A stretch of 64,000 nucleotides of DNA from the human T2T-CHM13v2.0 reference genome, Homo sapiens: the NCBI RefSeq assembly GCF_009914755.1, contig NC_060934.1. One strand, 5' to 3'. The position numbers were made by a program, and so were the translations under genes. Positions 30,256 to 41,281 of the stretch are shown here, in pieces (the first letter of the stretch is position 1; every line of letters starts with the position of its first letter). Under the pieces are notes generated by a model that saw nothing but the letters and a program-made list of their open reading frames with translations, searched no databases and was not told the origin of the DNA.

Positions 30256-31636
30256 ATATCCTTTCCTCTGCCCGCTGCCCCCACTCCCCACCCAGCCCCA
30301 CAGTCGTCCCCCAACCCCACCCTGCACAAATACCTGCAAAATGTCAAATGAGTTTTATGTGTCAGCTAAATTAAAGTATGTGAAATACAGTTCGTGGGCA
30401 GACAAAGCATTCTGTCTTCTGGCACTCGGGACACTTCAGAGTAATTTATTATAGGTCATTCATAAATGAAACGCACCATTATATCTTCCTGTTGCTCCAT
30501 TTTAGTGTAGAGATCTAAGTTATGGCTGTGAAGAAATCTTTTTAATAGATAAAAATAGAGAAAGAAAATAATGTCACCGCTGCAGAGGCAGCGAAGCCCA
30601 GTCTGTTTGCTTGGGCTTGTGTGGGAGGGCGACCTCTGGTGGGAAGTCCCGGGTAATGCCGCCAAGCAAACTTCCTCTCCTGGGAGGTTTCTGGAAGGCT
30701 CTGGGGCAGGCTTGGGGAACCGTTTTGGTGAGGGAAAGGAGCTAAGGTGGCAGAGACATGTGAAGCCCAGGCCTGGCTATGCCCTCACTGGGGGATACCA
30801 TGCTCTGGTGATGAGAGGCCTAGGGGACCCACGACAGTGTATGGCCTCCTCTATGGAGGCAAGGACCTAGTCAGCCTAGGGTGAGACTTACGGGCACTAA
30901 CTGCTCTGGATTCTGTAGTGGGGATGGAAACAGGGAACCCTTGCTGCAACCTAAGGCCCGTAGCTCCTGCATTGTTAGTGTAGTGGATTACCCGGCACTA
31001 GAATGCCAGCTCGATGGGACAGGGAGTTTCCTTGGTTTTGTTAACTCCTCTGTTCTTCACACTAAGAATAGTGCCTGGCACCAAGTACAAGCTCAATAAA
31101 TATTTGAGGGATGAATGCATCATTATCATTAGCTATTCCTTATTGAGCACTCCTAGGAATGAGGCATGGTGCTGGGTTCTTTATGTGTGTTGTTATTCAT
31201 CCTTACCAAGCCCTGTGAGAAGGGTGTGTCTTTTCCATTTACCTAGACATAGAAAGAGGTGAGGTGTAGGCACACAGCCAGACACTAGCAAGATGCTAGG
31301 TCCTGGATGATTCAGTGTCAACTGTGTTGTGTCCAAAGTCCAATGTCTGCATTCTACTGTGTTGCTTCAGACTCAGTGGTCCAATGGCTTTGTTTTATTG
31401 GATGGAACATTTGAGACCTGGAGTAGTTAAACCACTTGTTCACATTCATACAATAAGTTAGAAATAGAAAAGGAGACAAGGCATTTTCCTCTAGAGTATA
31501 AAATAAAATCAGATATACATGTAAGGCTTGGCACATATGCATATGCCAGCATTTAAGAATGATTTGCAGAAGTATTTGTTAGCTACTGTTTATACTTCAA
31601 GCCATAAGTTAATGTTTTCTTTATTCTCTCAGATAT

Positions 31637-31977
31637 TGTCTCAGTCAGCTCTTGCTGCTACAGCACAGTACCGTACATGAGGTGGCTTAAACAACAAACA
31701 TTTATTTCTCACAGTCTGGAGGCTGGAGGTTTGAGATCAGGATGCCAGCAGGGTTGGTTTCTTGGTGAAGATACTTTCTCACTGTATCATCACATAGCAG
31801 AGAGAGAGGAAGCAAGCTTTTTCAAGTCTCTCCTTATAGGGGCACTGATCCCATCAGAGAGATCTACCCTTATGACCTAATCACCTCCCAAAGGCCTCAT
31901 CTCCACATACCATCATTTTGGGGATTAGAATTTCAACATATGAATTTGAGGGAAGAACAAACATTCAGACCATAGTA
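31637..31977 (-). mobile_element. MaLR LTR (MLT1A-like)
   Basis: tgtctcagtc...ggtggcttaaacaacaaacatttatttctcacagtctggaggctgg...aacattcagaccatag. Confidence 0.85.
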
Positions 31978-32904
31978 TTATAAATATGCTCCTTGTGGTC
32001 ATTATTGTCACTTTGATAGAAGTAGAAGGGGAGGGCCTACATGTAAATTCACAGTCTTTGTCATAATGAAATTTTGGTGGAATTTTCCCTTCTTATGTCT
32101 GTTAGTCAACCAAGTTTCCCAATCACTCTTTGAAAAACTTTGTAGTCTTATGGCTTTCTAGGCTGTCTTAGATGATCAGTTGGCCAATATTCTCAAATAA
32201 ATCAAGGACAGAAGGATTTTTAGACATGTCCTGTGTCCCAGGTCTCCGTAGAATATTAGGGTCCATGGACTTTGGTTCATGTCTCAGCTTAATCATATTT
32301 AGCGGTGTGACCTTGGACAAGTTATCTTCTGTGAGCTTCTTTTTCTCATTTTTAAAGAAATATGTTGGACTGGTCGATGGTTTTATTCACAGTATTGCTG
32401 TCACCAGAGATAAGCAGGCCTCTTGGCTTCAGAGTGCTGAGAGGTTTTCTTTGTCTTTGGTTGAGTCCTTTCCCTATTCTGTGCCTCCACTTTTCCAATC
32501 TGTAGCAGTAATGCTAAGGGAGTAATGGTAATGGCCTAGGAGGGACCGAAGCAGAAGACACTGTGTGGCTGTAAACCTGACCAGTGATATCACTGGTGCT
32601 GTTGTAGCACATTTTCTTATCAGTGAATATTCTGAATAGACTTCTTTCCTTTTTTCTCCTCTGCTCTACTAATGTGATTGTGAAGATCATCTTCCCCATC
32701 TACTTGACTCAGAAGTCACAGAGAAAGGTAGGTAAAATCAGGCAATAACAGCACATGCTATCTTCTCAACCCAGCACTTCTGATGCCACTTTTTCAGCTA
32801 AATGACTCTCCTACCTAACTGTGAGAATGTTGCAGGCTTTCCAACAATTTCTAGGTTCCATATTGTTATTGCCACCCCATGAAATGCTTTAGATATGGCC
32901 TCTA

Positions 32905-33358
32905 TACATTAGCTTTTGCTGCATAATAATCCACCCCAACATTTAGTGGCTTAAAACAACAAATATTTACAATTCTATAGATCAGATGTTTGGCCAGGGC
33001 TCAGCAGGATGGTTCTTCTGCTAGTCTTATTCTGGGTCAGTCATGCAGCCACATCTACCTGGAGGCTCAACTGGGGCTGGATGGTCTAAGATGACCTCAC
33101 TCATATGTCTGGAGGTTGGTACTGGGTGTTGGCTAAACTACCTGTCTCTTAACAGGCTAGCATAAGACACTTCACATGGGAGGAGTATTCTAACAGCACA
33201 AGCCCCATAGTACAAGTAGTCTTCAAGTTCAACTTATATCATGTGTTAATGTCCCATGACCAAAGCAAGTCACATACCAACTGTAGAATAAATATGGGAA
33301 GGGACTGCACAGGGTGTATGTATAAAGAAGCATAATTCATTTCTGTAACAATCTACCC
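32905..33358 (-). mobile_element. MaLR LTR (MLT1H-like)
   Basis: ttagcttttgctgcataataat...ttagtggcttaaaacaac...ccaaagcaagtcaca...gtaacaatctacc. Confidence 0.7.
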
Positions 33359-33734
33359 AGGAGACCTTGGCATTGGCATCTTGTCTCCTTCAGATTTTAC
33401 TTTATATTTGTGATAAAGGGAGCCCTAGAAACAAGTAACTATTGGCCTCCTAAAAAAGTATTAGCTCTTTTGTGTAAATTGAATCTTTAAACAAGTTAGG
33501 AAGCTTGCTGCCAAATGAGGTTTTATCTTGAATCCTTTTGTGAAGTTAGCTTTATTTTAAATTTTTTTGGTTTGTATTTTGGCATATGTAAAATGGTTAT
33601 TCACCCCACCTACCATGTAAAATCTAGATTTTTCCACTTTGGTTTGACTCAAAGTTAAATGTGTCTATAATAATGCTGTAGGTTCCTAGACCCTGGACAC
33701 TTGGGTCATTGGCTTCTTTAATCCTTTAGCAAGA

Positions 33735-39000: not shown

Positions 39001-39626
39001 TTGCTAGTTTCCCCTCTTACTAGTTTCCCTCTCTTGCTAGTTTCCCCTCTCTTGTTAGTTTCCCCCTCTTGCTTGTTTCCCCTTCTCTTGCTACTTTCCC
39101 CTCCCTTGCTAGTTTCTCCCCTCTCTTGCTAGTTTCCCCCTCTCTTGCTAGTTTACCTTCTCTTGCTAGTTTTTCCCCTCCTTTGTTAGTTTCCCCCTCT
39201 CTTGCTAGTTTACCTATTCTTGCTAGTTTTTCCCCTCCCTTGCTAGTTTCCCCCTCTCTTGCTACTTTACCCTGTCTTGCTAGTTTCGCCCTCTGGTTAG
39301 TTTCCCTCTCTTGCTAGTTTCGCCCTCTGGTTAGTTTCCCTCTCTTGCTAGTTTCCCCCTCTGGTTAGTTTCCCTCTCTTGCTAGTTTCCCCCTCTCTGG
39401 TTAGTTTCCCTCTCTTGCCAGTTTCCCCCTCTCTTGCTAGTTTCCCCCTCTTGTTAGTTTCCTCCTCTTGCTAGTTTCTCCCTCTGGTTAGTTTCCTTCT
39501 CTTGCTAGTTTCCCCCTCTCTTGTTAGTTTCCCCTCTCTTGGTAGTTTCCCCCTCTGGTTAGTTTCCTCCTCTTGCTAGTTTCCCCCTCTTTTGCTAGTT
39601 TCCCTCTCTTGCTAGTTTCACCTCTT
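39001..39626. repeat. Pyrimidine-rich minisatellite, about 35 units of 16-20 bp (consensus TTGCTAGTTTCCCCCTCTC)
   Basis: Units counted by eye; contains higher-order trimer and dimer blocks. Confidence 0.97.
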
Positions 39627-40595
39627 CTGCTTGTACTCTGCTTCTCATTGTCTCTGGCTGCTCTCACCTAGGGTATAGCATTTGGCCTTGCATATGATGG
39701 AGGCAGAGCATGTGTACAAAGAATGCTTGAAGGAACTTAGTTTGGAGAATAAAAGATTTAAGGAAGACATGTGAGCTTCAAATATCTGAAGCTTCATCAT
39801 GTGGAAGAGAAGAAGCCTTATTCTTTGTGACCCCAAGCAGTTAAATTGGGTCACTGAGTAGAGGTTAGAGAAAGATTCAATTCCAGGGGAAAGGAAAACT
39901 GTTATGGTTGTCAGAAATGGAATGTGCTATGTCGTGGTGATTGCTTGGCAAATATTTTAGGGACCCAATTCCGACATTGGTTGGATTTTGAATTCATTCT
40001 TTTGTGACAAGTTGAAATGAAGTATGAGGAAATCTGTGTAACAGCCCAAGGTTAGATAACATCCTCACAGAGCAAGAACATCCCTTTTCTTTGATTTTAC
40101 CTTCTCCTAGGTTCAAGTGGACCCCACTTCTGGGAACTGTAATCTGAGTCTTTCACGCTTGCATATGGCATTTCTTCTACCCTTGTATGTTTTGTTCCTG
40201 TAGCTCTGCTGCCATTCCCTGGCTGGGACCCCCTTTTATCTGCCAACTTGGTTAACTCCTCTCTCATATGTCTCTCGAAGTCACGGCCTAACCAGGCATG
40301 CCTATCTAACCATCACCTTACCTAGGCTCAGCTTGTCTGTATGTGGCTTAAGCCAGGAGTTAGTATGGGGACTAAGTTGTCATTAAACCCTTTCCAGTAC
40401 CTGTGATTCTGTGAATCTATGGCTCTTGCTTTATTTGGTTTGGCCATGATTGGACAGTGGGTCCCACTGGAAGATGGCTCCTGGAATAATCTCCCCCATC
40501 ATGCCCCCCTCTGACTTTTCTCTTTCATTCTCTAATTCCCTCACTAACAGAGAAAGAATATATTTTAATGAGGCCTTCTGAAATAATTTCTGGTT

Positions 40596-40901
40596 TTCTT
40601 TTTCTGGTTTTTTTGTTTTGTTTTTTTCTTTTGAGACAGAGTCTCGCTCTGTCACCTGGGGGCATGATCTCTACTCACTGCAACCTCCACCTCCCAGGTT
40701 CAAGCGATTCTCCCGCCTCAGCTTCCCAAGTAGCTGGGATTACAGGCTCCTGCCATCATGCCCAGCTAATTTTTGTATTTTTAGTAGAGACGGGTTTCAC
40801 CATGTTGGCCAGGCTGGTCTCAAACTCCTGACCTCAAATGATCTGCCTACCAGGGCCTCCCAACGTACTGGAATTACAGGTGTGGGCCACCATGCCCAGC
40901 C
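40596..40901 (-). mobile_element. AluS (Sx/Sz-like) with a small internal deletion
   Basis: T-rich tail followed by the reverse Alu; lacks the aggctggagtgcagt segment. Confidence 0.93.
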
Positions 40902-41281
40902 CTTGTTTTCATTACTAGAAACGAATTAAGTTTTATGGTTTTGCATATTGTAAAAATATTTTACTCTATGGAATCTTCCCTTTTGGTGTGTTTTAGAAAC
41001 AGAACTATAGAGGAAAGAAAAATATGATGGGACAATCAAGTTTATTCATTCTTCCTCAGATGATCTGGACTTAGTCTTACCTGCCTAGCGAAAGTTGGGC
41101 TGTGTTCCCAACAGTGGGAGTGAAAAAGTAGCAATACCGTATACCCACAGCTGAATTGATTTCAGCCCCCACCCTGAGGTCTCACAGGAGCAGACTGGAC
41201 TCATCAGCGCCTGTCAGTCATGGCCTATGCTCATTGCTAAGCCTTTTGTCTTACTGGACCAAGATTCTTAACCTTTGTCAC

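What the first reader, a model, noticed from the sequence alone, without database searches (positions are those of the whole stretch)
30256..41281. Large minor-spliceosome AT-AC intron splitting the LRR core of LRMDA
Seen: no GT follows the first exon and no AG directly precedes the second. Instead there is ATATCCTTT, then ATTCTTAAC ending 9 nt before the exon, then AC, with no long pyrimidine tract. The junction restores NKNR|ITDL and completes the LRR motif. Known: this is the U11/U12 consensus (RTATCCTTT, TTCCTTAAC). AT-AC introns are a rare subset and can be rate-limiting. Inference: output of this pigmentation gene depends on the minor spliceosome (RNU4ATAC, ZRSR2, RNPC3, RNU12), and pathogenic variants at these sites could be missed by GT-AG-centred tools. 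It may already be listed in minor-intron catalogues.
Basis: partly seen in the sequence, partly recalled or inferred. Interest (0 to 1): 0.8.

Follow-up and report, generated by a model that had tools for sequence, protein, structure and literature searches.

The report
Known minor-spliceosome AT-AC intron in LRMDA
The 11-kb intron between two coding exons of the albinism gene LRMDA carries the full signals of the rare "minor" splicing machinery, but it is already listed in the published minor-intron catalogue for human and mouse.

Summary
The exon ends at 30255. The intron begins ATATCCTTT (30256-30264), carries ATTCTTAAC at 41264-41272 and ends AC (41280-41281). The next exon starts at 41282. 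Joining the exons gives an open frame reading ..[15 protein letters not shown].., and the intron falls in phase 0 inside an LRR consensus.

Neither motif is rare in the window on its own. Both sitting at the two annotated exon edges has a chance of about 1.6e-8.

The supplement of Olthof et al. 2019 (MIDB paper, PMC6717393) lists LRMDA/Lrmda as a minor-intron gene in both human and mouse, with exactly these 12-mers. The human scores are 94.3 for the 5'SS and 74.3 for the branch site. Olthof et al. 2020 (PMC7507305) lists LRMDA with OCA7 among disease-linked minor-intron genes.

Dependence on minor snRNAs was not tested here, and I found no test of it in print. One published RNA-seq table bins this junction as "cryptic" in all tissues, together with other AT-type introns. 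I read that as a read-alignment or binning effect, but it is unresolved.

Verdict: real, ordinary, already catalogued.

The parts
30129..30255 (+). Upstream LRMDA coding exon (127 nt). It has a U2-type acceptor (..tcattgcag|G) and ends ..AAC CGA (..N R).
   Evidence: Its translation matches Pfam LRR_4 (E 4.2e-6, 27.3 bits against a cut-off of 27) over residues 10-41, covering profile positions 2-33 of 44. The match therefore runs to within one residue of the exon end and stops 11 profile positions short of the model's end.
30256..30264 (+). U12-type 5' splice site ATATCCTTT (AT subtype).
   Evidence: The 12-mer CGAATATCCTTT is identical to the human LRMDA entry in Olthof 2019 Table S2, with an AT-AC 5'SS PWM score of 94.29.
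30256..41281 (+). The intron: 11,026 nt, phase 0, AT-AC termini.
   Evidence: It contains no ATG ORF of 120 aa or more, and no Rfam family reaches its gathering score anywhere in the window.
41264..41272 (+). Branch-point sequence ATTCTTAAC. The candidate branch adenosines are 41270 and 41271.
   Evidence: The 12-mer AGATTCTTAACC is identical to the human LRMDA BPS in Olthof 2019 Table S2, score 74.32. The distance to the 3' end is 10-11 nt, against a published optimum of 11-13 nt.
41280..41281 (+). 3' terminal dinucleotide AC.
41282..41421 (+). Downstream LRMDA coding exon (140 nt). It starts ATC ACT GAT TTG (I T D L) and ends at a consensus U2-type donor, CAG|gtgagt.
   Evidence: The strong downstream U2-type donor could assist recognition of the U12 3' splice site by exon definition. 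That is an inference from the general statement in Turunen 2013.

Best explanation
Window 30256-41281 is a genuine U12-dependent (minor-spliceosome) intron of the AT-AC subtype in LRMDA.

Inferred mechanism, from the established model of U12 splicing. The U11/U12 di-snRNP recognises the rigid 5' splice site ATATCCTTT and the branch site TTCTTAAC together. U12 bulges one of the two adenosines at 41270/41271. U4atac/U6atac.U5 then joins, and U6atac replaces U11 at the 5' site. The AC at 41280-41281, 10-11 nt downstream of the branch, is used as the 3' site without a U2AF-type pyrimidine tract.

Removal joins codon CGA (R) to ATC (I), in phase 0, and restores one leucine-rich repeat (LxxLxLxxNx|IxxL).

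The sequence signals, the reading frame and the catalogue entry are shown. Actual dependence on minor snRNAs in cells is inferred.
For: 1. The sequence matches at the exact annotated exon edges, with a joint chance of about 1.6e-8.

2. Only the annotated junction reproduces the LRR. There are 5 GT donors and 7 AG acceptors within 60 nt of the edges. Of the 35 pairs, 7 keep the frame open, and every one of those deletes or replaces LRR residues.

3. The upstream exon alone hits Pfam LRR_4, and the match runs to within one residue of the exon end and stops short of the model's end.

4. Olthof 2019 Table S2 lists LRMDA as a minor-intron gene with status 'Both'. The human entries are CGAATATCCTTT (94.29) and AGATTCTTAACC (74.32). 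The mouse entries are CAAATATCCTTT (97.92) and AGATCCTTAACC (81.99). The paper's rule for the AT-AC class is a 5'SS score above 50 and at least 10 points above any other 5'SS matrix.

5. The same 12-mer CGAATATCCTTT is the listed 5' site of the ATG9A minor intron.

6. The intron coordinates are listed for human (hg38 chr10:76036135-76047163, ENST00000611255) and for mouse (6,431 nt) (file 8).

7. The branch-to-3' distance of 10-11 nt is close to the 11-13 nt optimum, and lack of a distinct pyrimidine tract is typical of the class (Turunen 2013, passages).
Against: 1. No experiment was seen, here or in searchable text, showing that this intron responds to loss of U11, U12, U4atac, U6atac, ZRSR2 or RNPC3.

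2. The branch site departs from the consensus at 2 of 9 positions. Its score, 74.3, is below the mouse score of 82.0 and below the scores of several other human entries on the sheet part I read.

3. The intron is in phase 0, the phase that is under-represented among U12 introns (Moyer 2020, passages).

4. Olthof 2019 Table S7 lists this intron under CAT6 (cryptic 5'SS) and CAT7 (cryptic 3'SS) with a mis-splicing index of 1 in all 8 human tissues. Taken at face value, that means no read was binned to the annotated junction. I read this as technical. All 8 other introns with the same pattern whose 5' site I looked up are also AT-type: GARS, GBE1, HNRNPL, WDR1, CEP170 and RAPGEF1, and ALG3 and ARL16. 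The LRMDA junction can also slide by 2 nt without changing the mRNA. However, the paper says it counted only sites more than 2 nt away, so this point is not settled.

5. The one supplement file held for Olthof 2024 (PMC11347168) does not contain 'LRMDA' or 'C10orf11'. I did not search it by Ensembl id.
Confidence: 0.95

Rival explanations
1. It is an AT-AC intron removed by the major (U2-type) spliceosome, like the small divergent AT-AC subclass.
For: Such introns exist. Olthof 2019 states that several AT-AC introns are spliced by the major spliceosome, and Wu and Krainer 1997 appears in the reference list of Turunen 2013. The branch site here is imperfect, matching 7 of 9 positions.
Against: The 5' site is the full ATATCCTTT with a minor AT-AC PWM score of 94.3. 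A recognisable TTCTTAAC sits 10-11 nt from the 3' end. The published classifier, which requires the minor score to exceed every other 5'SS matrix by at least 10 points, calls the intron minor.
Confidence: 0.02
2. The annotated junction is wrong or rarely used, and the real mRNA uses other boundaries (GT-AG or other) nearby.
For: Olthof 2019 Table S7 bins the reads at this intron as cryptic 5' and cryptic 3' site use, with index 1 in 8 of 8 tissues. An AG acceptor giving a first exon base of 41264 lies 18 nt upstream of the AC site and in frame with it.
Against: No GT lies within 40 nt of the exon end. The nearest are at 30215 upstream and 30302 downstream, both in poor contexts. All 7 frame-preserving GT-AG pairs delete or replace LRR residues. 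The same CAT6 plus CAT7 index of 1 is shown by the 8 other introns I checked, all AT-type, which points to alignment or binning. RefSeq's selected transcript uses 30255^41282 (hub annotation). Mixed AT-AG termini are reported as disfavoured.
Confidence: 0.02
3. The motifs are chance matches with no role in splicing.
For: Each motif taken alone is not enriched in the window: 4 found against 1.57 expected, and 5 found against 2.78 expected.
Against: Their joint placement at two fixed exon edges has a chance of about 1.6e-8. The mouse orthologue has the same kind of sites.
Confidence: 0.01

Closest known systems
U12-type AT-AC introns catalogued in MIDB (Olthof et al. 2019), such as those of ATG9A, GARS, HNRNPL and GBE1
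   Same: An AT start with the invariant TATCCTT core, a TCCTTAAC-like branch site close to the 3' end, and an AC end. The 12-mer at the 5' site is identical to that listed for ATG9A. The LRMDA intron is itself an entry in this catalogue.
   Different: Nothing categorical. The branch-site score is in the lower range (74.3). The intron is long (11 kb) and in phase 0, the rarer phase for this class.
U12-type GT-AG introns, the commoner minor subtype (about 72% of minor introns)
   Same: The same machinery, the same branch site and the same +3 to +9 5' site core.
   Different: The terminal dinucleotides here are AT-AC. About 22% of human minor introns are of this type.
U2-type AT-AC introns (major spliceosome)
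   Same: AT-AC termini.
   Different: By my recollection, not from a call, these lack the TATCCTT core and the close TCCTTAAC branch site. The LRMDA intron has both.

Membership tests
U12-type (minor-spliceosome) intron, AT-AC subtype | 5' splice site /ATATCCTT(T) at +1 to +9 | tested here: met
   ATATCCTTT lies at 30256-30264, directly after the annotated exon end.
U12-type (minor-spliceosome) intron, AT-AC subtype | Branch-point sequence resembling TCCTTAAC, about 10-15 nt from the 3' splice site (optimum 11-13) | tested here: met
   TTCTTAAC lies at 41265-41272. Its adenosines are 10-11 nt from the last intron base, and the optimum is quoted. One core position differs from the consensus (TTCTTAAC against TCCTTAAC).
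U12-type (minor-spliceosome) intron, AT-AC subtype | Terminal dinucleotides AT...AC | tested here: met
U12-type (minor-spliceosome) intron, AT-AC subtype | No distinct polypyrimidine tract before the 3' site | tested here: inconclusive
   The longest Y run is 6 and the Y fraction is 0.68 in the last 40 nt. The two U2-type acceptors in the window give 8 and 6, and 0.62 and 0.68, so the feature does not discriminate here.
U12-type (minor-spliceosome) intron, AT-AC subtype | Classified as minor by a PWM-based pipeline (minor 5'SS score above 50 and at least 10 points above the other matrices) | tested here: met
   I did not recompute this. It is taken from Olthof 2019 Table S2, which gives a 5'SS score of 94.29 and a BPS score of 74.32. 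The rule is stated.
U12-type (minor-spliceosome) intron, AT-AC subtype | Intron position and type conserved in orthologues | tested here: met
   Shown for mouse only, from the same table: status 'Both', with CAAATATCCTTT and AGATCCTTAACC. I did not see the mouse 3' dinucleotide. No eukaryote genome collection was available to check other species.
U12-type (minor-spliceosome) intron, AT-AC subtype | Splicing depends on U11, U12, U4atac and U6atac, with retention when they are impaired | not testable with these tools
   No RNA data are available here. Among the main texts searched, none on the topic pairs LRMDA with 'minor intron' or 'spliceosome', and none of the 20 papers listed contains LRMDA. 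Supplements of knock-down and patient studies could not be opened.

The most novel reading that the evidence does not exclude
A 61-nt stretch directly abuts the 5' splice site at 30265-30325. It is the single most C-rich stretch of the window's + strand: 64% C, with eight C-runs of 3 or more. The 10-mer CCCCACCCTG occurs only twice in 64 kb, 60 nt inside the 5' end and about 105 nt inside the 3' end of this intron.

The novel reading is that these form an RNA-level element, for example poly(C)-binding-protein sites. Such an element could help the U11/U12 di-snRNP recognise or bridge an unusually long minor intron. That would make LRMDA output in pigment cells tunable through minor splicing.

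The evidence does not exclude this. It equally fits DNA-level CACCC-type boxes of the annotated enhancer, or chance.
Probability: 0.05. Interest if true: 0.5.

Novelty: already known. Interest (0 to 1): 0.1.

Why it matters
LRMDA is the gene for oculocutaneous albinism type 7. Diagnostic pipelines tuned to GT-AG may under-call variants at ATATCC, at the branch site or at the AC. This general point is already made in print for minor-intron genes (Olthof 2020: abstract and passages; a 2026 SCN5A report: abstract start only).

For LRMDA specifically, the gene name occurs only once in the 4 supplement files held for Olthof 2020, in the file-2 row that pairs it with OCA7. I did not open those files or establish which tables they are. 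If the paper's minor-intron variant tables are among them, no variant in this intron was listed there.

The practical value is therefore a reminder for albinism variant interpretation, not a discovery.

Tried and rejected
1. Motif enrichment alone is not significant, so I used the positional coincidence instead.

2. Alternative GT-AG boundaries within 60 nt of the edges: 35 pairs were examined and 7 keep the frame open. None preserves the LRR.

3. Pfam on the downstream exon alone gave no family at E up to 1. I did not submit the spliced protein to any tool, because joined sequence is not to be typed.

4. An Rfam scan of the whole window found 0 families at gathering score. The intron holds no ATG ORF of 120 aa or more. 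It therefore hosts no recognisable snoRNA, miRNA or nested gene.

5. Literature in main texts:
- LRMDA with 'minor intron': 0 papers.
- C10orf11 with U12: 6 papers, none relevant by title.
- LRMDA with spliceosome: 7 papers, 6 listed, none relevant by title.
- OCA7 with 'splice site' and LRMDA: 9 papers, none about this intron by title or abstract start.

6. The supplement of Olthof 2024 gave no hit for LRMDA or C10orf11 in the 1 file held.

8. The earlier-findings tool was not open.

9. No eukaryotic genome collection was on hand, so conservation beyond mouse could not be checked.

10. A search for complementary or repeated segments near the two intron ends found only an 18-nt imperfect direct repeat inside the C-rich tract and an unrelated 10-nt hairpin. 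It found no end-to-end pairing.
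Full report
**1. Observation**

Reading the two edges and extracting the annotated exons by script confirms every coordinate in the finding.
- Exon 30129-30255 ends ..AACCGA.
- The next nine bases, 30256-30264, are ATATCCTTT.
- ATTCTTAAC occupies 41264-41272.
- Nine bases, CTTTGTCAC, follow it and end in AC at 41280-41281.
- The next exon begins ATCACT at 41282.
- The intron is 11,026 nt long.

The frame that starts at 30130 is the only one open through all three annotated exons. 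It reads ..[24 protein letters not shown].. across the junction, so the intron is in phase 0.

The upstream exon alone matches Pfam LRR_4 (E 4.2e-6, 27.3 bits, cut-off 27). The match covers profile positions 2-33 of 44, runs to within one residue of the exon end and stops short of the model's end. Read by eye against the LxxLxLxxNxI pattern, which is recalled and not from a call, the intron lies between 'Nx' and 'I' of one repeat.

**2. Chance**

RTATCCTTT has 4 matches in the window on both strands, against 1.57 expected, and 12 of 100 shuffles reach 4. TTCTTAAC has 5 matches against 2.78 expected, and 14 of 100 shuffles reach 5.

The motifs by themselves are therefore unremarkable. What is not chance is that one sits on the first intron base and the other 9 nt before the last, at exon edges annotated independently by RefSeq. 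From the observed densities the joint probability is about 1.6e-8.

**3. Could other boundaries be used?**

Within 60 nt of the edges there are 5 GT donors and 7 AG acceptors. Of the 35 pairs, 7 keep the frame open, and each of those deletes or replaces residues of the repeat. The nearest GTs, at 30215 and 30302, are in weak contexts.

The junction itself can be placed 0, +1 or +2 nt without changing the mRNA, because both the intron and the downstream exon begin with AT. Only the 0 placement gives AT-AC.

**4. What it is and how it works**

All sequence criteria of a U12-type intron of the AT-AC subtype are met:
- the rigid 5' site;
- a TCCTTAAC-like branch site with its adenosines 10-11 nt from the 3' end, against an optimum of 11-13 nt (Turunen 2013, PMC3584512, passages);
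- AC at the end.

The mechanism follows the established model in the same review (passages) and my own knowledge. The U11/U12 di-snRNP recognises the 5' site and the branch site cooperatively. One of the two adenosines is bulged from the U12 helix. U2AF and a pyrimidine tract are not needed. U6atac replaces U11 before catalysis.

The flanking sites are ordinary U2-type..ttgcag|G at 30128/30129 and CAG|gtgagt at 41421/41422. The review says flanking U2-type introns enhance U12 splicing by exon definition. That this applies here is an inference.

**5. Comparison with what is known**

The intron is already catalogued.

*Olthof et al. 2019 (BMC Genomics, PMC6717393; supplements read, main-text passages).*
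- Table S2 has the row Lrmda / LRMDA / 'Both' / protein coding.
- The mouse entries are 5'SS CAAATATCCTTT (97.92) and BPS AGATCCTTAACC (81.99).
- The human entries are 5'SS CGAATATCCTTT (94.29) and BPS AGATTCTTAACC (74.32).
- The human strings are letter for letter those of window 30253-30264 and 41262-41273.
- The coordinate table gives hg38 chr10:76036135-76047163 (ENST00000611255, listed length 11,029) and a mouse intron of 6,431 nt.
- The listed human length differs by 3 from the 11,026 nt counted here. Whether that reflects coordinate convention or a small indel between assemblies I cannot tell.

*Olthof et al. 2020 (PMC7507305).* One supplement file pairs LRMDA with 'Albinism, oculocutaneous, type VII' among disease-linked minor-intron genes. 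The gene name occurs nowhere else in the 4 files held.

*Main texts.* No main text in the searchable library discusses LRMDA together with minor splicing on topic, and none of the 20 papers listed contains LRMDA. The knowledge therefore exists at catalogue level only.

The single held supplement of Olthof 2024 has no 'LRMDA' string.

**6. A result that cuts against the simple reading**

In Table S7 of Olthof 2019 the LRMDA intron appears under CAT6 (cryptic 5' site) and CAT7 (cryptic 3' site). Its mis-splicing index is 1 in all eight human tissues, and the filter was passed in 6 of 8. Taken literally, no read was binned to the annotated junction.

The same all-ones pattern is shown by roughly twenty introns in that sheet. 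I looked up the 5' site of 8 of them: GARS, GBE1, HNRNPL, WDR1, CEP170 and RAPGEF1, and ALG3 and ARL16. All 8 are AT-type, whereas only about 22% of human minor introns are. Reads were aligned with Hisat2 and binned with BEDTools.

I therefore read the pattern as a systematic effect of how AT-AC junction reads were placed or binned, possibly helped by slidable junctions like this one (+2 nt). The paper states that only sites more than 2 nt away were counted, so my explanation is not proven.

If the effect is technical, the table is indirect evidence that spliced reads across this intron exist in human tissues. The paper's expression table lists LRMDA at about 2 to 16 across its eight human-tissue columns. 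I did not read the column headers or units, though the paper sets its expression threshold in TPM.

**7. Verdict**

Dependence on particular minor-spliceosome genes, rate limitation and missed pathogenic variants remain reasonable but untested extrapolations for this gene.

**8. Seen in passing**

- The 61 nt that follow the 5' site (30265-30325) are 64% C with eight C-runs. This is the only stretch of that C content on the + strand, 1 of 63,939 positions. It lies inside the RefSeq 'enhancer' 28266-32252.
- CCCCACCCTG occurs only twice in the window, near each end of this intron. That observation is post hoc, and 7 of 100 shuffles give 2 or more copies.
- A degenerate 17-18-nt minisatellite of about 35 copies lies at 38997-39625. 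It is 81% pyrimidine on the sense strand and is not in the hub's list of masked stretches.

Noticed in passing
window 30265-30325 (+): There is an extreme C-rich tract directly after the U12 5' splice site: 64% C, with eight runs of CCC or longer. It is the only 61-nt stretch of the + strand with 39 or more C, 1 of 63,939. It contains an imperfect 18-nt direct repeat and lies within the RefSeq enhancer 28266-32252. It could be CACCC-type protein sites in DNA, poly(C)-protein sites in the pre-mRNA, or neither.
   Followed up: partly
window 30315-30324 and 41167-41176 (+): CCCCACCCTG occurs only twice in the 64-kb window on both strands, about 60 nt inside the 5' end and about 105 nt inside the 3' end of the same intron. 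The expected count is 0.36, and 7 of 100 shuffles give 2 or more. This is post hoc and unexplained.
   Followed up: partly
window 38997-39625: A degenerate minisatellite lies inside the intron. Its unit is about 17-18 nt (TCTCTTGCTAGTTTCCCC), with 35 copies, 78% matches and 81% pyrimidine on the sense strand. It is not among the stretches the hub lists as masked and may be a VNTR.
   Followed up: partly
window 30255/41282 junction: The junction can be slid +1 or +2 nt without changing the mRNA, because the intron and the downstream exon both start with AT. Aligners that do not favour AT-AC could report shifted, non-canonical boundaries.
   Followed up: yes
Olthof 2019 Table S7 (not window sequence): Roughly twenty human minor introns, LRMDA among them, show CAT6 and CAT7 indices of 1 in all tissues. 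I looked up the 5' site of 8 others and all 8 are AT-type. This looks like a systematic alignment or binning effect in that data set rather than biology.
   Followed up: partly
window 41262-41263 (AG; first exon base would be 41264): An AG lies 18 nt upstream of the AC 3' site and in frame with it. Using it would add six codons. It overlaps the start of the branch-site 12-mer. AT-AG combinations are reported as disfavoured.
   Followed up: no
window 4430, 8487, 54996, 62082 (+): Other RTATCCTT donor-like strings lie on the sense strand inside neighbouring LRMDA introns. The one at 4430 lies in a masked repeat. There is no evidence that they are used, and the counts are not above chance.
   Followed up: no
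intron length, hg38 versus this assembly: MIDB lists the hg38 intron as 11,029 nt, while the window gives 11,026 nt. The cause could be coordinate convention or a small indel and is not resolved.
   Followed up: no
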